DNA from: Escherichia phage SUT_E1620
Length of the DNA: 64,000 nt
Strand: one strand, 5' to 3'
Sequence record: OQ939939
Part shown: in pieces, positions 29,042 through 56,442 of the stretch
Layout: each line of letters starts with the position of its first letter
Position numbering within the stretch: position 1 is the stretch's first letter
Made by a program: the position numbers and the translations under genes
The notes under the pieces: model-generated
Databases searched by the model: none
Told to the model about the DNA's origin: nothing
What the model saw: the letters and a program-made list of their open reading frames with translations, nothing else

Positions 29042-29214
29042 AAAGTTTTTCCTCCAATTCCATAATACGATTTTCGTAAGAAGCACGCAGCTTCTCGATG
29101 GACAAAGCACGAACTGTAACTTCATCTGAATTGATCGCTAGCTGAGCTAGATCTTCTGTTTCCATACGTCCGTTGTAAATTAAGCGATACTTAAGATGTT
29201 TTACGTTTTTCATA
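29010..29214 (-). CDS. Hypothetical protein (68 aa)
   Basis: ATG (MKNVKH) preceded by GAGAGGAG directly downstream of promoter. Confidence 0.5.
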
Positions 29215-29229
29215 TTTTCTCCTCTCAAA

Positions 29230-29280
29230 TTTATGAGAATATAATATCAAATAAAAGCGATATAAGCAAGTACTTTATTT
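29230..29280 (-). promoter_or_regulatory. Sigma70-type early promoter (minus strand) for accessory operon
   Basis: Reverse complement TTGCTT-N17-TATTAT plus CATAAATTTGAGAGG box. Confidence 0.65.
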
Positions 29281-29965
29281 ATTTTTCTACCTTCACACAC
29301 CCATTATTAATTAAATACTCTTCCGCGACTGTAGCAGATATATCGAAGAATTCAGTACATCCAGCAAATCCTGTATACTTTAACCTATATCCTGAAAAGT
29401 ATTCATGAGCCTGCTTCTCAATAGCTCTACTTTTAGACTTGGTACCTATATCTACTGAATAGACACCAAAAATATACAAATCCATTATATTGGAACTTTT
29501 AACTATCTCTTTCCTTCGTCTTTCAGGAGAGACACTAATTCCTATTTTAGTTCCCATATTACTACACATAATGTATATAAAACCAGGAACACTCCAATCA
29601 GTATCACATACAGGACATCCAGAATTCTTATTCTTTACATTACCTACTGTAGCTTCCCACGTATGCCCATACTCACATTCAAAAAGGGTTTTAGTAGCAT
29701 TATTTTTATACTCTCCAATAAGGGTTATACCTCTGCCACGTAACTCTTCGTTCACCGAATCTTTGGTAAGCTTTAAAGTACCTGAGCATATTGGACAGCC
29801 AGATTTGCTGTTCCTTACATTATTAACCGTAGCTTCCCACGTATGACCTATATTACATCTGAACGTACCCTTACTAAGGATTCCTGAATACTCGCTTACT
29901 AGCTTAATTCTTCTAGGCTCTAAATCTTTATTGATAGTATCTTTATCTAACTTCCTTCGTACCAT
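29279..29965 (-). CDS. Duplicated zinc-ribbon protein with C-terminal T5orf172-like (GIY-YIG-related) domain
   Basis: Two repeats of GHTWEATVxNVxNxxSGCPxC; C-terminal GFIYIMCSNMGTKIGIS resembles T5orf172 domain core. Confidence 0.6.
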   Translation of the reverse strand: MVRRKLDKDTINKDLEPRRIKLVSEYSGILSKGTFRCNIGHTWEATVNNVRNSKSGCPICSGTLKLTKDSVNEELRGRGITLIGEYKNNATKTLFECEYGHTWEATVGNVKNKNSGCPVCDTDWSVPGFIYIMCSNMGTKIGISVSPERRRKEIVKSSNIMDLYIFGVYSVDIGTKSKSRAIEKQAHEYFSGYRLKYTGFAGCTEFFDISATVAEEYLINNGCVKVEK

Positions 29966-29974
29966 TTAGTCCTC

Positions 29975-30020
29975 CTTATACTATTATACACAAATTTTTA
30001 GCTCGAAAGCAAATAAAATA
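29975..30020 (-). promoter_or_regulatory. Sigma70-type promoter (minus strand)
   Basis: Reverse complement TTGCTT-N18-TATAAT. Confidence 0.55.
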
Positions 30021-30047
30021 AAAGCCAGGTCGACTAGCAACCTGGCT
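30011..30047 (-). terminator. Rho-independent terminator after nrdD (minus strand)
   Basis: GCCAGGT...ACCTGGC hairpin followed on minus strand by TTTTATTTTATTT. Confidence 0.75.
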
Positions 30048-30053
30048 GATTCA

Positions 30054-31928
30054 TTATTTAGCGCGAATGTCCTGATGTTTCACTCGACCCATAACCTCAT
30101 GTTGTTTACCTGGGTTAAACGGACGAGCACCTGGATTTCCAAGATATCCACAAACTCGACGAGTTACCTCAAGAGTCTCAGGATCATGATTGCCACAAAT
30201 TGGGCATTTGAAACCATCCTCAGAAGCTATAGTTTCACCCAAGAACCCACATTCCCCACAAGAGTCTACTGGAGTATTAATACCGAAGTAATGAACTTTA
30301 CTTGCAGCATAGTTAATAACCCATTCCAGTGCATCAGGGAATCGTTTCATATCCGGTAATTCCACATAGGAAATGCACCCACCAGAAGCAATAGGAGTAA
30401 AGTTAGACTCATAATCAAACTTCACATTTGGAGCAACCTTACGTTCTACATCAAGGTGATGGGAATTAGTGTAATATCCTTTAGCCAGAATATCTTCATG
30501 CTCTGGGAAATACTCACGGTCTAGGCGACAGAAGCGATCACATAGAGATTCAGATGGTGTAGCATACAGACTATACCCTAATTGAGTCTCTTCCTTCTTC
30601 TGATCAGCACGATCACGCATGTATTGTAGCACACGTTGAACGAACTTGATACAAGACTCAGACATTGTATCTACATCTTTACCAAACATGAGTTGCAACA
30701 TTTCGTGGCAGCCAATATATCCTAGGGATACAGAAGCACGCTTGTAGAAATGATCAAATACATATTCATCTGGCCCCAGACGTAATCCAAAGGCTCCTGA
30801 CATATAGAGGATGGGCGCAGCTTTAGCTTGAATGTATTTTAAGCGATCAACCCTCCACTCCAATGCTTTTAACGCGGTATCCACACGCAGCTCAAGCAGA
30901 TCGAAGAATAGATCAATATTTCCTTCCGCTTCGATAGCGATTCGAGGAAGGTTTACGGAAACAACGCCTAAGTTGTTACGACCAGAAGTTTCACCATCTT
31001 CCGCAGCAGCCAGGAATGAACGACAGCCCATAGAGACTTTGTAGTCCCCCGTAACTTCTACAACCTTATCATAACTGATGTAGTCAGGATACATACGTTC
31101 AGCAGTACATTTCATAGCTAACTTCTTGATATCATAGTTAACATCACCAGGTTTCATGTTTACGCCCTCACGCAAAACAAATACCAGTTTAGGGAAGATA
31201 GCTGTACGTTTATTGATACCCAAACCATCCATACGTACTTCTAGTATTGCTTTCTGTACAAGACGTGCTTCCCAAGAAGTTCCTAGACCAAAACCAAAGG
31301 TAATAAACGGACTTTGACCATTAGAGTTGAACATCGTATTGATTTCATACTCCAGGCCCTGACAGGCATCGTAAACTTCTTTCTCAGTCATTTCCGTAGC
31401 CATTACAGATGCTTTAGCTTCATCCTTAGTCCAACGCTTTGCAAACGCATGATTCTTATCATAAGACTTACGAACATAAGGAGCCAATACTTCATCTAAT
31501 CGGTCTACAGAAGTACCCCCATATTGATGTGAACTAACCTGAGTGATAATCTGAGCTGTGATAGCAGCCGCAGTAGTAATAGAGTTTGGTGTACTGATTT
31601 CAGCATTACCAACCTTCATACCATTCTTCAACATATCTTCCAAAGCAACCAGGCAACAGTTAGTCATACCTAACGCAGCGTAATCAGCATCATGGAAGTG
31701 AATATCACCAATCATGTGAGCATTTCGAATCTGGATTGGCATTTCTTCCAGAATCAGATATTTACTCAATTCCCCTGCAAGCATATCCCTTTGTGTAGGG
31801 AAACGTTCTGAGGGCTTATTGGCATTATTAAACAGCAGCTCTTCATCTGCTGAACCTTCGATAATTTCTTTGCAGTTTCGAATCAAGGACTGCATTCCTT
31901 TATACTTTAGTTCTTCATTGCGATTCAT
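30054..31928 (-). CDS. nrdD: Anaerobic ribonucleoside-triphosphate reductase (class III RNR)
   Basis: 624 aa; C-terminal zinc site CGECGF...CPICG and glycyl-radical motif RVCGYLG. Confidence 0.9.
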   Translation of the reverse strand: MNRNEELKYKGMQSLIRNCKEIIEGSADEELLFNNANKPSERFPTQRDMLAGELSKYLILEEMPIQIRNAHMIGDIHFHDADYAALGMTNCCLVALEDMLKNGMKVGNAEISTPNSITTAAAITAQIITQVSSHQYGGTSVDRLDEVLAPYVRKSYDKNHAFAKRWTKDEAKASVMATEMTEKEVYDACQGLEYEINTMFNSNGQSPFITFGFGLGTSWEARLVQKAILEVRMDGLGINKRTAIFPKLVFVLREGVNMKPGDVNYDIKKLAMKCTAERMYPDYISYDKVVEVTGDYKVSMGCRSFLAAAEDGETSGRNNLGVVSVNLPRIAIEAEGNIDLFFDLLELRVDTALKALEWRVDRLKYIQAKAAPILYMSGAFGLRLGPDEYVFDHFYKRASVSLGYIGCHEMLQLMFGKDVDTMSESCIKFVQRVLQYMRDRADQKKEETQLGYSLYATPSESLCDRFCRLDREYFPEHEDILAKGYYTNSHHLDVERKVAPNVKFDYESNFTPIASGGCISYVELPDMKRFPDALEWVINYAASKVHYFGINTPVDSCGECGFLGETIASEDGFKCPICGNHDPETLEVTRRVCGYLGNPGARPFNPGKQHEVMGRVKHQDIRAK

Positions 31929-31949
31929 TATACCCTCCTTCTCTAACTA

Positions 31950-31995
31950 AGACTACTATTATAACTCATTCGAAGGCGGATGTCAACAATATTTT
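31950..31995 (-). promoter_or_regulatory. Sigma70-type promoter for nrdD (minus strand)
   Basis: Reverse complement TTGACA-N17-TATAAT. Confidence 0.6.
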
Positions 31996-32169
31996 ACTAT
32001 AAAGTTCTGTAACATGATCTGAGTCAAAAAATTTTATTTGCCAACCTCTACTAAAAATAGTATAATCACGCATCCGTGTACGCGATATAAAATGATTATC
32101 TAGTACCATACATCTCCCAATAAAAGCAAGCAAATTTTTTATTTAAATGCAATATCATAGGCTTATTTA

Positions 32170-32215
32170 AAATTGTAGTTGCTTTCTCCCGTATATATTG
32201 GTATAATATATTTGT
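32170..32215 (+). promoter_or_regulatory. Sigma70-type early promoter
   Basis: TTGCTT (32179-32184), 17-bp spacer, TATAAT (32202-32207); second TTGCCA-N17-TATAAT at ~32040-32069. Confidence 0.65.
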
Positions 32216-32280
32216 AAGTTGATAAACAAGATCTTTTTGTTGATCCTCTGTTAGCGAAGTACACTATAGGAGTGTTATTT

Positions 32281-33033
32281 ATGGGAAAAGCACGTCAAAA
32301 AAGAGAGAACCGCAATGGTTCAAGAAAGCGTGGCAACAAGTATGAGAGTAACGTAATTCAAGCAGATTTCTCTGGTGATTACGCCAATCCAGTTGCTAAA
32401 TCCCTAGTTGGTAAAAACCGTGAGCAAAAATCATATATCAATATGATCAAGAACAACACAGTGACTGTGGGTATTGGTGAACCAGGTACTGGTAAAACCT
32501 TTATTCCGTCCGTTCTTGCAGCTCAGGAACTCGTAGACATTCACTCAGATATTGAGCAAGTGATCCTCGTGCGTCCGAACGAACCTCTAGGTAAATCTCT
32601 TGGTATGCTCCCAGGTGATCTGGCAGAAAAGCTAGAGCCTTGGTTGGAACCAATAGCCGATGGCATGAAATGGGCAATCGGTGATCACGCCTACAAAGGA
32701 TATGTCGAACGTCAGAAAATTAAATTCCTGGCTATCGAACATGCCCGTGGCCGAACTTTCAACAACTCCTATGTAATTGTCGATGAAGCTCAGAATATCT
32801 CCGTTGAAGCAATGATCTGTCTTTTGACTCGTGTAGGACAAGATTGTCGTTTAATTATCTGTGGAGATATAGCTCAGAAAGACATCAAGGGTGATTCAGG
32901 TCTAGCACTTCTTATGGAAGTCTATGAGAAGTACGAAAACTCTCCTTTCTCTATGATCGAACTGATCGACAACGTTCGCTCACCAGAGTCTAAAGCATTC
33001 TACGATATCTTTAAGGATATGGGGAAGGTGTAA
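32281..33033 (+). CDS. phoH: PhoH-like ATPase
   Basis: Walker A GEPGTGKT, Walker B VIVDEAQ; ATG at 32281 preceded by AGGAG (track ORF uses upstream GTG). Confidence 0.85.
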   Translation: MGKARQKRENRNGSRKRGNKYESNVIQADFSGDYANPVAKSLVGKNREQKSYINMIKNNTVTVGIGEPGTGKTFIPSVLAAQELVDIHSDIEQVILVRPNEPLGKSLGMLPGDLAEKLEPWLEPIADGMKWAIGDHAYKGYVERQKIKFLAIEHARGRTFNNSYVIVDEAQNISVEAMICLLTRVGQDCRLIICGDIAQKDIKGDSGLALLMEVYEKYENSPFSMIELIDNVRSPESKAFYDIFKDMGKV

Positions 33034-45780: not shown

Positions 45781-46621
45781 TAAATTAGAGAACAGCGAGC
45801 CGATTACGCTGAGTGAGTTTAGTGATTCCTACTAGGATAGCTATTCCACTGAATAGAGTCGGTGAGTTGGAGACTAGTAAGTACTCTGAGAGAGGCTACG
45901 AGCTAACGCTTATTGCTATTGATAGGGAACTGAAAATCTGCGGAAAACTCGGGAGCTGTCCCGAAATCTCGTAAACTCTTCTCTAGTTTATGTTAGTGGG
46001 GTGTCGAACTGACTTATGTGATAACACTGCCGTCCTAGTATAAACGGTAATATCAAACCGTAACTGGTGGAAGATGCAGGTTCGAATCCTGCGGTCGGAA
46101 AGAATCAGATAACTCGGGCTTATACCGGATAAGCATTCGCTGCTGGAGTACATACTATGACGGTTCAGGAGGTACGCCGCCTGATCAGTATTAGGTTAGA
46201 ATCGAAACAGCTAAACCACGAGGAAACCTGACGGCCTCAACCAAACTCGGAACTCGGGATCACTGCCTAGTGTGTGCCCCGTTTAACATAGAGACTAGGC
46301 ATCGAAAATCGGAGGTGTGATTCTACCAGACCGCGTGAATATGAGAGTGGGAAATGCTGGCATGAGAGATGTCACTAATGGTGCCCAATAGTACAGGTAA
46401 TTCGCGATAATTCCTGTTGAGTGGCAGCAGTAGGCTGGGAGTCATGACCTAAGCCTAACCGAGTTCTTCACATACGGAGAACATAACCACAAAGTCACCC
46501 TGACTTAAACTGGAGGATATTGTCTGACGGAAGGGCTGCAGAGCTTAATCTGAGGGGGCTGACCCTACCTACCGTCGGGTATCTTTAAGAGCTTTTATAA
46601 GAGTTCTTAAAAATACCTAAA

Positions 46622-50377: not shown

Positions 50378-50941
50378 ATGTTTAAGACAATACCTGAATT
50401 TCCTATGTATAAAATTTCTGAAACAGGCAAAGTTTACTCATTGCATGTTAACAGAGAAATAGCTACTTATCTTAACAATAAAGGTTATCCATGTGTTAAG
50501 CTAAGTAAAAATGGTGTTGAGCATACTCTTTTAATATCTAGACTATTATGCAGAGTATTTAAAGATTTAGAAGATCTTTATTCCTCTAAAGAAGTAGACC
50601 ATAAAGATAGAAATCCGGCAAATTTTGAACTAAGCAACCTACAAGTTCTTAGTAAAGAAGAGCACGTAATAAAAACATGTTCTGATAACAATATTAGTAG
50701 AAGAACGGATGTTTGTCCTATTTGTGGTGATACTAAGCATAAATCCTCAAAAGCCTGCTTAAAGTGTACTGCTTCGGCTAGGATTAAGAGTAGAGATATT
50801 ACAAAAGAAGATATAGAGTATTGGGTACGAAACTTCTCCTGGGCTAGAGCTTCAAGAGAACTTGGACTATCTGATAATGGACTCCGAAAGAGATATAAGG
50901 CTCTTGGGGGAGACCCTAAAAATATTTGCACCTTTAGCTGA
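50378..50941 (+). CDS. HNH homing endonuclease with C-terminal DNA-binding module
   Basis: HNH core (EVDHKDRNPANFELSNL), Cys cluster, C-terminal LSDNGLRKRYKALGG shared with ORF 52201..52782. Confidence 0.75.
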   Translation: MFKTIPEFPMYKISETGKVYSLHVNREIATYLNNKGYPCVKLSKNGVEHTLLISRLLCRVFKDLEDLYSSKEVDHKDRNPANFELSNLQVLSKEEHVIKTCSDNNISRRTDVCPICGDTKHKSSKACLKCTASARIKSRDITKEDIEYWVRNFSWARASRELGLSDNGLRKRYKALGGDPKNICTFS

Positions 50942-50999
50942 GATGGATTAGCGCTTGCCTGAAGAGCTTGAGAGGTTGGATCGTTACCAACGGGGTGCA
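50928..50999 (+). tRNA. Candidate tRNA-Phe (anticodon GAA) with non-canonical T-loop and weak anticodon stem
   Basis: 7/7 acceptor pairing GCACCTT/GGGGTGC, D-stem GCTG/TAGC, anticodon loop CTGAAGA, T-stem GTTGG/CCAAC with loop ATCGTTA (54/58 swapped), A73-CCA; anticodon stem has two U-U mismatches. Confidence 0.45.
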
Positions 51000-51019
51000 C
51001 CAATTTGAAGGAGATGCTG

Positions 51020-51905: not shown

Positions 51906-52011
51906 CCATATTCTGTGTAGAGTTAAGTAAACCGGTAGCCAACCAGTTATCATTGCTGATATCGAATTCAGTCACAGATACCATTTTTCATTAACAACTG
52001 AGGAAATAGAT

Positions 52012-52926: not shown

Positions 52927-53141
52927 CCAAACATCAGAGCAGCGTGATGTACTGCAAAGACCCAAAGTCCGGGGGGACTTCTTGATTCAAAGGAGCAGGC
53001 ATTAATTATCATTCTAGCGTGGTGGAGAGGGGACACCAGCTTGCCGAGGGTAGAAGCTCGTTCGATTCGAGTGAAAGAATGGTTCTCGTAAATCCGCACA
53101 AGTGATAGCAGGTTCAAGTCCTGCCTAGATTGACTTATTAT

Positions 53142-53212: not shown

Positions 53213-53459
53213 CCAAATTTAGGTTTCTGCTTCCTAGAGAACGGACTCCTAGATAAACAAGGCGATGAGTTTCCGGCCGGTTCTAGTCGCTGAAAATCCT
53301 CCCGACCAGGTAGGTGTAGGTAAACGAAAGTTTACTTATTGAGTAGGTTCCGATAGATCGGCGGATCTATTCTGGCATTTAAGAGAAGTCTCGCAAACTT
53401 CTTTGTCAGCAGAGCGTTTGAAGCGTGAGGTGGCCTACACAATAAGTAAATTTATTAAA

Positions 53460-54900: not shown

Positions 54901-55149
54901 GATGAGGAGAAATCCTCATCAAAGTTCACTAAGGTATTAGCTCGACCTAGGACTGGCTGCCAAAAAGCACAATTGCAATTAGACCCCTAATGGCGGGGGA
55001 TACTTTGCAATAAGTTCTAGATTAGTCCACTAGATTCAGCGGCAACTGAATAGTGTATCGGGTTTGTGAAGAGCGGTTATCCTCTACTGGCTAATGTCTG
55101 AGGGTAATACGCACACCGAGCTAATAGCCTTAGTAAACTTAAAGATTTT

Positions 55150-55646: not shown

Positions 55647-55859
55647 ATGATGAAAACTCCTATAACTGATATCTGGTTAGCTGTTAATACATTAACTAAA
55701 GAGTATGTGTTTATAGAGTATGGTCAGAGGTATGACCAAAAGATGTATAATCTCATACTTCCAGTATCCGCTAATGAAGTTTATGATTTAATCCTGAGAT
55801 CTACGGAAGAGCAAATCGACTTGGTGACGAAAACCGCTTGGAAAGTGGCTGACTTGTGA
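55647..55859 (+). CDS. Hypothetical protein (70 aa); 3' third overlaps tRNA-Ser
   Basis: Six-frame ORF; last ~55 nt coincide with tRNA-Ser(GGA), so coding status uncertain. Confidence 0.4.
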   Translation: MMKTPITDIWLAVNTLTKEYVFIEYGQRYDQKMYNLILPVSANEVYDLILRSTEEQIDLVTKTAWKVADL

Positions 55860-55894
55860 AAGCAGGCTTGAGAGTTCGAATCTCTCTTCTTCCG
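55805..55894 (+). tRNA. tRNA-Ser (anticodon GGA), long variable arm
   Basis: Acceptor GGAAGAG/TTCTTCC, anticodon loop TTGGAAA, ~20-nt variable arm, T-loop GAGAGTTCGAATCTCTC, G73, CCA. Confidence 0.65.
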
Positions 55895-55904
55895 CCAAAC
55901 AACT

Positions 55905-55991
55905 GGAAGGTAGGACATAGTGGTATGTAACAGGTCTTGAAAACCTGCCCGCTGTAGCGATATGGTGATGGTTCGACTCCATTACCTTCTG
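55905..55991 (+). tRNA. tRNA-Ser (anticodon TGA), long variable arm
   Basis: Acceptor GGAAGGT/ACCTTCT, anticodon stem-loop CAGGT-CTTGAAA-ACCTG, ~19-nt variable arm, T-loop GATGGTTCGACTCCATT, G73, CCA. Confidence 0.7.
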
Positions 55992-56359
55992 CCAAATCTT
56001 GAAGTATGCCGGAATCGGTAGACGGGGCTTCCTAAAGGGCGTAAGGGGAACATCCACTCCTCATAAGATACCCGAAAACGAGGCTGAGATAAATGGTCTA
56101 TCTCGTGAAGGTTCAAGTCCTTCTGCTTCTTGATATTCAATGGCTCAAAGAGTAACGGTGCTATTTGATGCTCTTAGTAAGACTTTCCCGACATGCGTTC
56201 GGGAGTAAGCTGCTAAGGCTAGAGTAGAAGAGTTTCGGAGAGCCGCCACAATTGAAAATTCGTACTCGTCTTGAGCTGCGTGCAATAGGAGATAACTTGA
56301 TTAGTATTCTAGAAAATGCTATTTGAGGATGGTTTCGCTAATCCTGCGAGTTTTCAATT

Positions 56360-56433
56360 GTGGCTATATCATAATTGGTTAATGATCCTGATTGTGAATC
56401 AGGCCTATGTGGATTCGAATTCCACTAGCCACC
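56360..56433 (+). tRNA. tRNA-His (anticodon GTG)
   Basis: Acceptor GTGGCTA/TAGCCAC, D-stem TCAT/ATGA, anticodon stem-loop CCTGA-TTGTGAA-TCAGG, T-loop GTGGATTCGAATTCCAC, C73, CCA. Confidence 0.75.
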
Positions 56434-56442
56434 CCAAATATT

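What the first reader, a model, noticed from the sequence alone, without database searches (positions are those of the whole stretch)
55995..56359. 365-nt ORF-free interval with tRNA-like 5' and 3' fragments between tRNA-Ser and tRNA-His
It contains an acceptor/D-arm-like 5' segment (GCCGGAATCGGTAGACGGGG, ~56009-56028) and, ~100 nt downstream, a canonical T-arm (GAAGGTTCAAGTCCTTC, ~56109-56125) without CCA, which do not assemble into a normal-length tRNA. This may be a disrupted or intron-bearing tRNA or another small RNA; the remaining ~230 nt are also non-coding.
Basis: seen in the sequence. Interest (0 to 1): 0.45.

Follow-up and report, generated by a model that had tools for sequence, protein, structure and literature searches.

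The report
Known phage T5 stable RNA genes
The 365-base gap between two tRNA genes holds three small non-coding RNA genes already annotated in phage T5 (a tRNA look-alike with an oversized anticodon arm, plus two others); they are real and conserved, but their function has been unknown for about forty years.

Summary
The window is a T5-like phage (Demerecviridae). The interval 55995-56359 is real, has no conserved ORF, and is full of genes. It is homologous (89% identity) to the stretch of the T5 reference genome annotated as three stable RNAs. These are RNA1 ('tRNA-like stable RNA', window 55998-56141), RNAI (56142-56248, ending in GCCA) and RNAIII (56253-56358).

It has a 7-bp acceptor stem, a tRNA-Leu-type D-arm, a 5-bp anticodon stem, a long variable arm and a canonical T-arm. 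In place of the 7-nt anticodon loop there is a 48-nt structured insert, and no CCA is encoded. Across 27 distinct homologs this fold is 96.7% paired, and 12 of 34 pairs show compensatory changes. The two loops are almost invariant.

Intron-aware ARAGORN calls RNA1 an intron-bearing tRNA. The inferred anticodon is Phe, Leu or Val depending on the phage, and the insert is too small to be a self-splicing intron, so it is not a decoding tRNA. It is not a decayed pseudogene either.

A viable T5 deletion mutant lacks all three RNAs, so they are accessory. Verdict: already known, function unknown, modest interest.

The parts
55905..55994 (+). tRNA-Ser(UGA), upstream neighbour; ends in encoded CCA
   Evidence: ARAGORN; sequence
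55998..56141 (+). RNA1 gene (144 nt): homolog of T5 rna1, annotated 'tRNA-like stable RNA with unknown functions'
   Evidence: 81% identical to T5 rna1 (NC_005859 30501-30644) and in the same position; at least 80% coverage in 492 phage records
56000..56131 (+). RNA1 cloverleaf core, from acceptor position 1 to the discriminator U
   Evidence: Intron-aware ARAGORN cloverleaf; the same helices come from RNAalifold and the covariation count
56000..56006 (+). RNA1 acceptor stem, 5' strand (UGAAGUA); pairs with 56124-56130; the first pair is a conserved U.U mismatch
   Evidence: Pairs 5-131, 7-129 and 9-127 show changes on both sides; pair 8-128 shows UG/UA/CG
56009..56025 (+). RNA1 D-arm (CCGG-AAUCGGUAG-ACGG), tRNA-Leu type, with the GG of the D-loop
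   Evidence: The 18-nt motif is identical to ordinary phage tRNA-Leu genes; the stem is invariant, so its register rests on homology
56027..56031 (+). RNA1 anticodon-stem equivalent, 5' strand; pairs with 56080-56084
   Evidence: 3 of 5 pairs show changes on both sides; 99.3% paired
56032..56079 (+). 48-nt structured insert replacing the 7-nt anticodon loop: helix P-a (56037-56039/56071-56073) and helix P-b (56045-56049/56058-56062)
   Evidence: P-a has 2 of 3 pairs compensated; P-b has 3 of 5, with four pair types at 48-65 and at 49-64
56050..56057 (+). Tip loop ACAUCCAC of the extended arm, nearly invariant
   Evidence: 0.5% non-consensus letters over 27 homologs; alignment
56085..56105 (+). 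RNA1 long variable arm (6-bp stem) with the invariant 9-nt loop AAAUGGUCU (56091-56099)
   Evidence: Pair 92-104 is AU/UA/CG; the loop has 0% non-consensus letters
56107..56123 (+). RNA1 T-arm GAAGG-UUCAAGU-CCUUC (canonical T-loop)
   Evidence: Sequence; 100% paired; also listed as a 'terminator-like' hairpin
56124..56141 (+). RNA1 acceptor 3' strand (56124-56130), discriminator U (56131) and the tail GAUAUUCAAU; no CCA encoded
   Evidence: Sequence; alignment
56142..56248 (+). RNAI gene (107 nt): rod-like fold closed by GGCUC/GAGCC, followed by G-CCA
   Evidence: 90.7% identical to T5 rnaI; found in 304 phage records; consensus fold 99.1% paired but only 1 compensated pair
56249..56252 (+). 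4-nt spacer CAAU between RNAI and RNAIII
   Evidence: Mapping of the T5 annotation
56253..56358 (+). RNAIII gene (106 nt), almost invariant across phages
   Evidence: 97.2% identical to T5 rnaIII; 282 records, 280 of them at least 95% identical; 99% mean column identity
56245..56262 (+). Left arm of an 18-nt inverted repeat (GCCACAATTGAAAATTCG) spanning RNAI's CCA, the spacer and the 5' end of RNAIII
   Evidence: the repeat finder: 94% complementary to 56347-56364
56347..56364 (+). Right arm of the inverted repeat (CGAGTTTTCAATTGTGGC) spanning the 3' end of RNAIII and the 5' end of tRNA-His
   Evidence: the repeat finder; invariant in 10 homologs
56360..56436 (+). tRNA-His(GUG), downstream neighbour; 100% identical to T5's
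   Evidence: ARAGORN and Rfam; identity

Best explanation
The interval holds three separate small stable RNA genes, the orthologs of phage T5 rna1, rnaI and rnaIII. They lie inside a tRNA transcription unit.

Shown here:
1. Homology and synteny with the annotated T5 genes.
2. The three are independent modules that occur in different combinations in different phages.
3. RNA1 is a type II, tRNA-Leu-like cloverleaf. Its anticodon loop is replaced by a 48-nt two-helix extension, and it encodes no CCA.
4. That fold is maintained by compensatory substitutions, while the tip loop and the variable-arm loop are invariant.
5. None of the interval is protein-coding.

Inferred from established tRNA-processing knowledge:
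- The RNAs are cut out of the polycistronic tRNA precursor by the host tRNA-maturation enzymes.
- RNase P would cut at the acceptor-like 5' ends of RNA1, RNAI and tRNA-His. Its cut at RNAI +1 would create the 3' end of RNA1.
- Exonucleases would trim RNAI back to its CCA.
- RNAIII would be released either from the 18-bp helix it forms with its flanks, or by the RNase P cut at tRNA-His -1.

Inferred function, low confidence:
- RNA1 cannot decode. It keeps the acceptor/T-arm minihelix and the D/T elbow, so it probably acts as a tRNA mimic that engages a tRNA-binding host or phage factor.
- The two invariant loops are the likely specific contact sites.
- All three RNAs are accessory, not essential.
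For: Identity and synteny:
- 89% identity over the whole interval to T5 30283-30645, where rna1, rnaI and rnaIII are annotated.
- Element-by-element mapping onto the window.
- The same 365-nt unannotated gap occurs in the nearest relative, phage Ace.

Modularity:
- DT571/2 has RNAI and RNAIII but no RNA1.
- Klebsiella and Pectobacterium phages have RNA1 only.
- Record counts are 492, 304 and 282 for RNA1, RNAI and RNAIII.

RNA1 fold:
- 34 pairs are 96.7% paired, and 12 show changes on both sides.
- 0 of 500 shuffles reach the observed values, and slid registers are 40-52% paired.
- RNAalifold finds the same helices on its own.
- ARAGORN assembles the same cloverleaf when an insert is allowed, and calls a normal tRNA when the insert is deleted in silico.
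- The D-arm is identical to phage tRNA-Leu genes.
- In the T5 lineage the insert flanks read C|...|UUAAAA, the canonical Leu(UAA) loop.
- Loops have 0-0.5% non-consensus letters, against 4-6% for the D and T loops.

Other points:
- Not coding: the ORF is broken in most homologs.
- Co-transcription: no promoter or terminator above background lies inside the interval. The T5 record places promoters P13b and P11 outside it.
- Accessory: the viable T5-123 deletion 29191-32442 removes all three RNAs (PMC11464382).
Against: - No expression or end-mapping data were available here. 'Stable RNA' rests on the T5 record's annotation and on 1980s papers that could only be cited second-hand.
- The annotated RNA1 ends (144 nt) extend 2 nt 5' and 10 nt 3' of the cloverleaf, so the mature ends are uncertain.
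- The D-stem register cannot be settled by covariation, because the stem is invariant and RNAalifold prefers another register.
- RNAI has only one compensated pair.
- RNAIII has none, and its fold energy is not unusual (z = -1.7).
- The proposed function as a tRNA mimic or binding partner has no direct support.
- The fragment of T5 carrying these RNAs did not rescue infection against PARIS.
- No complementary target of the RNA1 loops stands out in the window.
Confidence: 0.85

Rival explanations
1. RNA1 is an intron-bearing tRNA gene. The ~41-nt insert in the anticodon loop is spliced out to give a working ~91-nt tRNA (Phe-AAA or Leu-UAA).
For: - Intron-aware ARAGORN calls tRNA-Phe(AAA) with a 41-nt intron at 56000-56131, and calls an intron-bearing tRNA in all 27 homologs.
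- In the T5 lineage, removing 40 nt would leave a perfect Leu(UAA) loop, CUUAAAA.
- One GenBank record annotates the element as tRNA-Phe.
Against: - The inferred identity changes among close relatives (Phe AAA, Leu UAA, Val AAC), and the intron position ranges from 33 to 39.
- In the window's lineage the would-be U33 is a C paired with G in helix P-a, and that pair covaries G-C/A-U.
- The insert has its own compensated helices and an invariant loop, which is unexpected for a discarded spacer.
- 41-48 nt is far below the size of any self-splicing group I or II intron, and Rfam finds no intron.
- From general knowledge, E. coli and these phages have no known tRNA-splicing endonuclease.
- No CCA is encoded, unlike every neighbouring tRNA.
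- The window already has a tRNA-Phe(GAA) and a tRNA-Leu(UAA).
- T5 lists the full 144-nt RNA as the stable species.
Confidence: 0.04
2. The interval is decaying junk: a tRNA pseudogene disrupted by an insertion, plus spacer DNA, with no function.
For: - It is dispensable for plaque formation in T5-123.
- It is absent, in part or whole, from some relatives.
- No function is known.
Against: - 12 compensated base pairs and 96.7% pairing in RNA1.
- Loops more conserved than those of real tRNA arms.
- RNAIII is at least 95% identical in 280 of 282 records, and 97% identical between phages whose neighbouring ORF and tRNA-Ser are 86-87% identical.
- RNA1 is retained in three subfamilies or genera, with a completely re-paired acceptor stem in Klebsiella phages.
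Confidence: 0.02
3. The interval encodes one or more small proteins, as 'hypothetical protein' annotations in several phage records imply.
For: - Short ORFs exist: 44 aa with a TTG start, plus 22, 24 and 20 aa.
- Many GenBank records place hypothetical CDSs over the region.
Against: - The 44-aa frame carries in-frame stops in 10 of 27 homologs and is frameshifted, with stops, in the T5 group.
- Substitutions come as paired, compensatory changes rather than in a codon pattern.
- The curated T5 and DT571/2 records annotate RNAs here, not CDSs.
Confidence: 0.02
4. The three structures act only in cis. They serve as processing 'punctuation' or stabilisers for the polycistronic tRNA transcript, giving RNase P, RNase III or exonucleases defined entry and stop points. 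The released RNAs have no role in trans.
For: - All three carry acceptor-like terminal helices abutting their neighbours. RNAI +1 directly follows RNA1. An 18-bp helix joins RNAI's CCA, RNAIII and the 5' end of tRNA-His.
- They sit inside a tRNA operon with no internal promoter or terminator.
- No trans target was found.
Against: - Punctuation needs only terminal helices. It does not explain two invariant internal loops and a maintained 48-nt extension in RNA1, or near-total sequence invariance along all 106 nt of RNAIII.
- Many relatives process the same flanking tRNAs without one or more of the elements.
- The RNAs are recorded as stable, i.e. they accumulate.
Confidence: 0.12

Closest known systems
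Phage T5 stable RNAs RNA1 (rna1, T5s03), RNAI (rnaI, T5s02) and RNAIII (rnaIII, T5s01) of NC_005859
   Same: Orthologous: 81%, 91% and 97% identity. Same order, lengths (144, 107 and 106 nt) and position just before tRNA-His. RNAI has the same GCCA end.
   Different: In T5 a small ORF (T5.063) separates tRNA-Ser(UGA) from RNA1; in the window they are 3 nt apart. The RNA1 helices differ by compensated substitutions.
Phage T4 small stable RNAs RNAC (species 1, 139 nt) and RNAD (species 2, 119 nt)
   Same: They are small stable RNAs encoded at the edge of a phage tRNA cluster, and their roles are still unknown. RNAC has a canonical T-arm, a terminal helix and enlarged internal arms. Neither has an Rfam family.
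   Different: There is no detectable sequence homology. ARAGORN's cloverleaf inside RNAC uses internal sequence, not the RNA's ends, so the architecture is analogous at most.
Type II tRNA, specifically tRNA-Leu(UAA)
   Same: 7-bp acceptor stem; U8; a Leu-type D-arm identical over 18 nt to phage tRNA-Leu genes; a 5-bp anticodon stem; a long variable arm; a canonical T-arm with UUCRA. The T5 lineage keeps a CUUAAAA remnant.
   Different: There is no 7-nt anticodon loop and no conserved anticodon or U33. A 48-nt insert sits in that place. No CCA is encoded. The 1-72 pair is a U.U mismatch and the discriminator is U. The element is not called by ARAGORN or the Rfam tRNA model.
Bacterial tRNA-Leu(UAA) genes interrupted by a group I intron
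   Same: A Leu-type tRNA body with extra sequence in the anticodon loop.
   Different: From general knowledge, group I introns are at least ~200 nt and are inserted between anticodon positions 34 and 35. Here the insert is 41-48 nt, sits at a different and variable position, and gets no Rfam intron hit.
tmRNA (SsrA)
   Same: A tRNA-like acceptor/T-arm module whose anticodon arm is replaced by other RNA, and which is processed by RNase P.
   Different: ARAGORN finds no tmRNA. There is no tag reading frame and there are no pseudoknots. RNA1 keeps a full D-stem, an anticodon stem and a variable arm, and lacks CCA.
Bacterial Y RNA-like YrlA (Rfam RF02553), which has a tRNA-mimicking domain
   Same: A non-decoding RNA that imitates the tRNA elbow.
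   Different: There is no Rfam YrlA hit in the interval. From general knowledge, the topology is opposite: in YrlA the RNA ends lie at the anticodon-stem side, whereas in RNA1 they lie at the acceptor stem.

Membership tests
T5 rna1 / rnaI / rnaIII stable RNA genes | Sequence homology to the annotated T5 genes over their full lengths | tested here: met
   81.4%, 90.7% and 97.2% identity, full length, E-values 8e-34 to 1e-47; alignment
T5 rna1 / rnaI / rnaIII stable RNA genes | Conserved position and order in the tRNA cluster: after tRNA-Ser(UGA) and directly before tRNA-His | tested here: met
T5 rna1 / rnaI / rnaIII stable RNA genes | Accumulation as discrete stable RNAs in infected cells | not testable with these tools
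   Only the T5 record's wording and second-hand citations of Ksenzenko et al. 1982 were available; the papers are not held
Canonical (decoding) tRNA | Acceptor stem, D-arm, anticodon stem and T-arm in cloverleaf order, with conserved tertiary nucleotides (U8, G18G19, T54-Psi55-C56) | tested here: met
   The first acceptor pair is a U.U mismatch.
Canonical (decoding) tRNA | A 7-nt anticodon loop with U33 and a conserved anticodon | tested here: not met
   A 48-nt insert takes its place. The implied anticodon is Phe, Leu or Val depending on the homolog. Default ARAGORN and Rfam tRNA make no call.
Canonical (decoding) tRNA | A 3' CCA (encoded in all neighbouring phage tRNAs) and aminoacylation | tested here: not met
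   No CCA follows the acceptor strand in any of the 27 homologs. Aminoacylation itself cannot be tested here.
Intron-containing tRNA (group I/II self-splicing) | An insert with a ribozyme core, at a fixed site in the anticodon loop, whose removal restores a conserved anticodon loop | tested here: not met
   There is no Rfam intron hit at E<=10. The insert is 40-41 nt by ARAGORN. Position and anticodon are inconsistent.
tmRNA | A tRNA-Ala-like acceptor with CCA plus a tag-peptide reading frame | tested here: not met
   ARAGORN tmRNA search is negative; Rfam is negative
tRNA pseudogene | Neutral decay: unpaired substitutions, indels, and no constraint on loops | tested here: not met
   96.7% pairing, 12 compensated pairs, invariant loops
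Any Rfam family | A score at or above the family's gathering threshold | tested here: not met
   There are no hits in 55995-56359 at gathering level. At E<=10 there are only noise hits: snoR120 at 17.7 bits and PCA3_2 at 12.2 bits.

The most novel reading that the evidence does not exclude
RNA1 is a purpose-built tRNA mimic. It is derived from tRNA-Leu(UAA) and keeps the acceptor/T-arm and elbow, so host tRNA-handling proteins accept it. Its invariant tip loop (ACAUCCAC) and variable-arm loop (AAAUGGUCU) then capture or block a specific tRNA-binding factor, for example a tRNA-targeting defence nuclease or a tRNA-modifying or tRNA-charging enzyme. That would make it an RNA-based counter-defence or host-takeover tool. 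RNAI and RNAIII would be further accessory effectors of the same kind.
Probability: 0.2. Interest if true: 0.65.

Novelty: already known. Interest (0 to 1): 0.3.

Why it matters
Small stable RNAs in phage tRNA clusters (T4 RNAC/RNAD and the T5 RNAs I, III, IV, 1, 2 and 3) were found decades ago and still have no known role. Phage-encoded tRNAs, meanwhile, have recently been shown to defeat tRNA-cleaving defence systems such as PARIS.

This work does not discover the genes. It does add the following:
- These RNAs are present in about 300-500 sequenced T5-like phages.
- In most records they are unannotated, or mis-annotated as hypothetical proteins or as 'tRNA-Phe'.
- They have no Rfam family.
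- RNA1 has a covariation-backed structure with two invariant loops, which gives concrete mutational targets.

The practical value is better phage genome annotation and a testable handle on an old open question.

Tried and rejected
1. Rfam at gathering level and at E<=10 over the interval found only flanking tRNAs and noise. T4 rnaC/rnaD and the T5 locus are likewise unmatched.
2. The intron-bearing tRNA reading is formally called by ARAGORN -i. I rejected it because anticodon identity and intron site are inconsistent across homologs and because the insert is too small.
3. The protein-coding reading fails because the frame is broken in homologs.
4. I searched bacterial genomes for RNA1 using its two invariant loops. 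The 4 hits (Polynucleobacter, Psychroflexus) match the ~1.8 expected by chance and lack tRNA arms. In viral contigs only T5-like genomes matched.
5. I searched the window for RNA targets complementary to the RNA1 loops. The longest runs (8-11 nt) are reached by 15-98% of shuffled queries (the first attempt, timed out).
6. I tested whether the other stable RNAs share a 'tRNA plus insert' design. ARAGORN -i finds no cloverleaf in RNA2, RNA3, RNAIV, RNA2H, RNAI, RNAIII or T4 rnaD. It finds only a doubtful internal one in T4 rnaC.
7. Single-sequence folding significance is weak: z = -0.5 for RNA1, -2.1 for RNAI and -1.7 for RNAIII. The RNA1 minimum-energy fold mispairs the variable arm and anticodon stem relative to the covariation model.
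8. The literature searches found no functional study of the T5 stable RNAs. The primary T5 papers are not held.
9. Iterating the search from the most divergent RNA1 copy found no new phage groups.
Full report
**What the window is.** The window carries at least 27 tRNA genes in 12 kb. Over the region around the finding it is 96-99% identical to Salmonella and Escherichia phages of the family Demerecviridae, the T5-like phages, genera Epseptimavirus and Tequintavirus.

**Checking the observation.** The gap between tRNA-Ser(UGA) (55905-55994) and tRNA-His (56360-56436) is exactly 365 nt.
- The D-arm-like string lies at 56008-56027 and the T-arm at 56107-56123.
- No CCA follows. The flanking tRNAs and the next element downstream do encode CCA.
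- Default ARAGORN, the Rfam tRNA model and all other Rfam families are silent here.
- Only ORFs of 52 codons or fewer lie in the gap.

**What is already annotated there.** A search with the interval alone finds 499 phage records. The T5 reference genome NC_005859 matches at 89% identity over its positions 30283-30645. There the record annotates three misc_RNA genes:
- rna1, 'RNA1, tRNA-like stable RNA with unknown functions', 144 nt.
- rnaI, 'RNAI, stable RNA with unknown functions', 107 nt.
- rnaIII, 'RNAIII', 106 nt.

Phage DT571/2 has RNAI and RNAIII annotated in the same place but lacks RNA1. Aligning the window with T5 maps the elements as follows:

| Element | Window coordinates |
|---|---|
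| RNA1 | 55998-56141 |
| RNAI | 56142-56248 |
| spacer CAAU | 56249-56252 |
| RNAIII | 56253-56358 |
| one U | 56359 |
| tRNA-His | from 56360 |

So the 365 nt are completely filled by three known genes. The T5 record lists seven such stable RNAs in its tRNA region. The window also carries homologs of RNA2, RNA3, RNAIV and part of RNA2H. The primary literature could only be seen as citations: Ksenzenko et al. [quoted passage not shown] 1983; Glukhov et al. 2018.

**The two tRNA-like fragments are one molecule.** I aligned 27 distinct RNA1 homologs. They include T5, a Klebsiella phage, Pectobacterium phage DU_PP_V, TrudiGerster and Yersinia phiR2-01. From the alignment I derived this structure, in RNA1 numbering (add 55997 for window coordinates):
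- Acceptor stem 3-9/127-133.
- U10 and G11.
- D-stem 12-14/26-28, with the loop AAUCGGUAG.
- Anticodon-stem equivalent 30-34/83-87.
- A 48-nt insert (35-82) containing helix P-a (40-42/74-76) and helix P-b (48-52/61-65), capped by the loop ACAUCCAC.
- Variable arm 88-93/103-108, with the loop AAAUGGUCU.
- T-arm 110-114/122-126, with the loop UUCAAGU.
- Discriminator U134 and the tail GAUAUUCAAU.

On the alignment, 96.7% of cells are standard pairs. 12 of 34 pairs show changes on both sides, spread over five of the seven helices. No shuffle out of 500 reaches the observed pairing, covariation score or number of compensated pairs. Sliding the 3' partners by 1-3 columns drops pairing to 40-52%. 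Pairs 48-65 and 49-64 each show four pair types, and pair 92-104 shows AU, UA and CG.

RNAalifold, run without my structure, returns the same helices except for the D-stem register. That stem is invariant and so cannot be decided by covariation. I keep the tRNA register because the 18-nt D-arm motif is identical to ordinary phage tRNA-Leu genes.

The single-sequence minimum-energy fold is misleading for the variable arm and anticodon stem. Its energy is also not unusual, at z = -0.5.

With introns allowed, ARAGORN calls 56000-56131 as a 91-nt 'tRNA-Phe(AAA)' with a 41-nt intron. It uses exactly the arms listed above. With the insert deleted in silico, it calls a normal type II tRNA.

The biology does not follow, for these reasons:
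- Across the 27 homologs the same program infers Phe(AAA), Leu(UAA) or Val(AAC), with the 'intron' at positions 33, 35, 36, 37 or 39.
- In the T5 lineage the insert flanks read C|...|UUAAAA, which would rebuild the canonical Leu(UAA) loop. Together with the D-arm, this points to descent from a tRNA-Leu(UAA).
- In the window's lineage the would-be U33 has become a C paired with G40 in helix P-a, and that pair covaries G-C/A-U.
- The insert is far too small for a self-splicing intron, and Rfam finds none.
- The insert carries compensated helices and the most conserved loop of the molecule.
- No CCA is encoded.
- The genome already has tRNA-Phe(GAA) and tRNA-Leu(UAA).
- T5 lists the full-length RNA as the stable product.

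I put this rival at about 4%.

**Not a pseudogene and not coding.** Compensated pairs and invariant loops exclude neutral decay. The tip loop has 0.5% non-consensus letters and the variable-arm loop 0%. The D and T loops have 4-6%, and the joining regions 13-26%. The Klebsiella copy keeps the fold with a wholly different acceptor stem. The 44-codon TTG-started ORF over RNA1 has in-frame stops or a frameshift in most homologs.

**RNAI and RNAIII.**
- RNAI begins with GGCUC and ends with GAGCC-G-CCA. That is an acceptor-like helix with a discriminator and an encoded CCA.
- RNAI's consensus fold is a long irregular rod. It is 99.1% paired on 20 homologs, against 30-55% for slid registers, but only one pair is compensated. 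The fold is plausible but not proven.
- RNAIII is remarkable mainly for its invariance. Mean column identity is 99% in the alignment, and 280 of 282 phage records are at least 95% identical.
- Between the window and T5, RNAIII is 97.2% identical. The adjacent ORF and tRNA-Ser(UGA) are 86-87% identical, and RNA1 is 81%.
- With so little variation, RNAIII's internal fold cannot be tested.
- RNAIII's terminal helix is part of an 18-nt inverted repeat (56245-56262/56347-56364, 94% complementary). The repeat also includes RNAI's CCA and the first bases of tRNA-His.
- The annotated RNAIII ends fall inside this helix with a 2-nt 3' overhang. That geometry fits RNase III cleavage. It fits equally well an RNase P cut one base upstream of tRNA-His. 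I could not distinguish the two.

**Independent modules.** The three elements occur in different combinations:
- RNA1 alone in Klebsiella and Pectobacterium phages.
- RNA1 plus RNAI.
- RNAI plus RNAIII, in DT571/2.
- All three.

These combinations are seen. Record counts are 492, 304 and 282 for RNA1, RNAI and RNAIII. A pattern built from the two invariant RNA1 loops finds only T5-like viral contigs. In 185,579 bacterial and archaeal genomes it finds only chance-level hits. Iterating from the most divergent copy adds no new groups.

**How it most likely works.**
- Shown: the homology and synteny, the RNA1 fold and its selective maintenance, the absence of coding potential, and the modularity of the three elements.
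- Inferred from the standard tRNA-maturation pathway: the RNAs are transcribed as part of the tRNA operon. There is no promoter or terminator signal above background inside the interval, and the T5 record places promoters P13b and P11 outside it. The RNAs are then released by RNase P at acceptor-like 5' ends and by 3' trimming.
- RNA1 lacks CCA. If it is matured like CCA-less T4 tRNAs, it would need RNase BN/Z and the CCA-adding enzyme. This comes from general knowledge and was not tested.
- Inferred with low confidence: RNA1 is a non-decoding tRNA mimic whose two invariant loops contact a partner.
- The RNAs are accessory. The viable mutant T5-123 (deletion 29191-32442) removes all three. Its coordinates are in the NC_005859 frame, because the paper's fragment 31885-32870 carries exactly the tRNA-Pro, fMet, Lys and Val genes annotated there.
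- The deleted fragments other than the tRNA-Lys one did not restore growth against the PARIS defence (PMC11464382).
- No complementary target for the RNA1 loops stands out in the window.

**Comparison with what is known.** These genes are members of the T5 rna1, rnaI and rnaIII families. Homology and synteny were tested and met; stable accumulation is not testable here.
- The closest analogues elsewhere are T4 RNAC and RNAD. They sit at the edge of the T4 tRNA cluster and their roles are also unknown. I found no sequence homology and no shared cloverleaf.
- RNA1 works like a tRNA body but fails the defining tests of a decoding tRNA (anticodon loop and CCA).
- It also fails the tests for an intron-containing tRNA, tmRNA and any Rfam family.

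**Verdict.** It is already known and annotated in the reference phage. What is new here is modest:
- A covariation-supported secondary structure of RNA1.
- RNA1's likely origin from tRNA-Leu(UAA).
- The inconsistency that disqualifies the 'intron' call.
- Distribution figures for the three RNAs.
- The point that most GenBank records leave these genes unannotated or mislabel them.

Interest is 0.3.

Noticed in passing
window 55805-55893: A tRNA-Ser(GGA) gene directly upstream of tRNA-Ser(UGA) is missed by default ARAGORN and the Rfam tRNA model. It gets only a weak tRNA-Sec hit of 25.4 bits. It is called at a relaxed ARAGORN threshold, and it matches the annotated tRNA-Ser-GGA of phage Ace except for a D-loop indel. 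It is only 70.7% identical to the T5 copy.
   Followed up: partly
window 50928-51002 and 46028-46101: Two Rfam tRNA hits (33.4 and 29.3 bits) are not called by default ARAGORN. At a relaxed threshold the first is tRNA-Phe(GAA). The second is an odd 74-nt 'tRNA-Ser(ACT)'-like element, possibly another tRNA-like RNA or a degenerate tRNA.
   Followed up: partly
window 53010-53134, 53343-53441, 51911-51983, 54935-55069: These are homologs of four more T5 'stable RNAs of unknown function': RNA2 (tRNA-like, 89.6% identity), RNAIV (89.1%), RNA3 (95.9%) and a partial RNA2H (78.5% over 113 of 172 nt). None has an Rfam family.
   Followed up: partly
window 56245-56262 / 56347-56364: An 18-nt inverted repeat ties together the 3' CCA of RNAI, the whole of RNAIII and the 5' end of tRNA-His. 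The annotated RNAIII ends sit in this helix with a 2-nt 3' overhang, a geometry typical of RNase III products.
   Followed up: partly
window 56359-56360; L004 963-1040: The base before tRNA-His G1 is U, and the T5 record includes it in a 78-nt tRNA-His. Bacterial tRNA-His normally carries an encoded G at position -1, so this phage tRNA-His may have an unusual 5' end.
   Followed up: no
window 55894-55904 versus L001 607-983, L002 and L003 ~694-930: Relatives carry an extra 200-360-nt ORF ('hypothetical protein') between the two tRNA-Ser genes. In T5, an HNH endonuclease gene (hegC) overlaps the start of tRNA-Ser(GGA) and a small ORF follows tRNA-Ser(UGA). In the window the two tRNA-Ser genes are about 11 nt apart. 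The tRNA cluster is an indel hot spot for small ORFs.
   Followed up: no
GenBank records of relatives (e.g. JLBYU43 OK272477.1/NC_105512.1; SP3, Seabear, 3-29, Stitch, VEc33): RNA1 is annotated as 'tRNA-Phe' in JLBYU43. RNA1, RNAI and RNAIII are covered by 'hypothetical protein' CDSs in many records, and most records leave them unannotated. Only T5, DT57C and DT571/2 label them as RNAs.
   Followed up: partly
L009, L013, L015 (about 30-170 nt of the extracted segments); L008, L011, L012; L010: Unrelated IMG/VR viral contigs carry the 5' part of a tRNA-Leu (acceptor, D-arm, anticodon stem and loop, e.g. ...ACTCGACTCAAAA). This is followed by ~110 nt of non-tRNA sequence that includes a terminator-like hairpin, before the matching 3' stem strand (TCGAGTC). 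These are either interrupted tRNA-Leu genes or prophage attachment-site junctions.
   Followed up: no
L139 1909-2047 (- strand; T4 rnaC): Intron-aware ARAGORN finds a weak tRNA-Leu(UAA)-like cloverleaf with a long variable arm inside T4 species 1 RNA. The RNA also has a perfect T-arm, CCGGGUUCGAAUCCCGG. This hints that T4 RNAC may also descend from a type II tRNA.
   Followed up: partly
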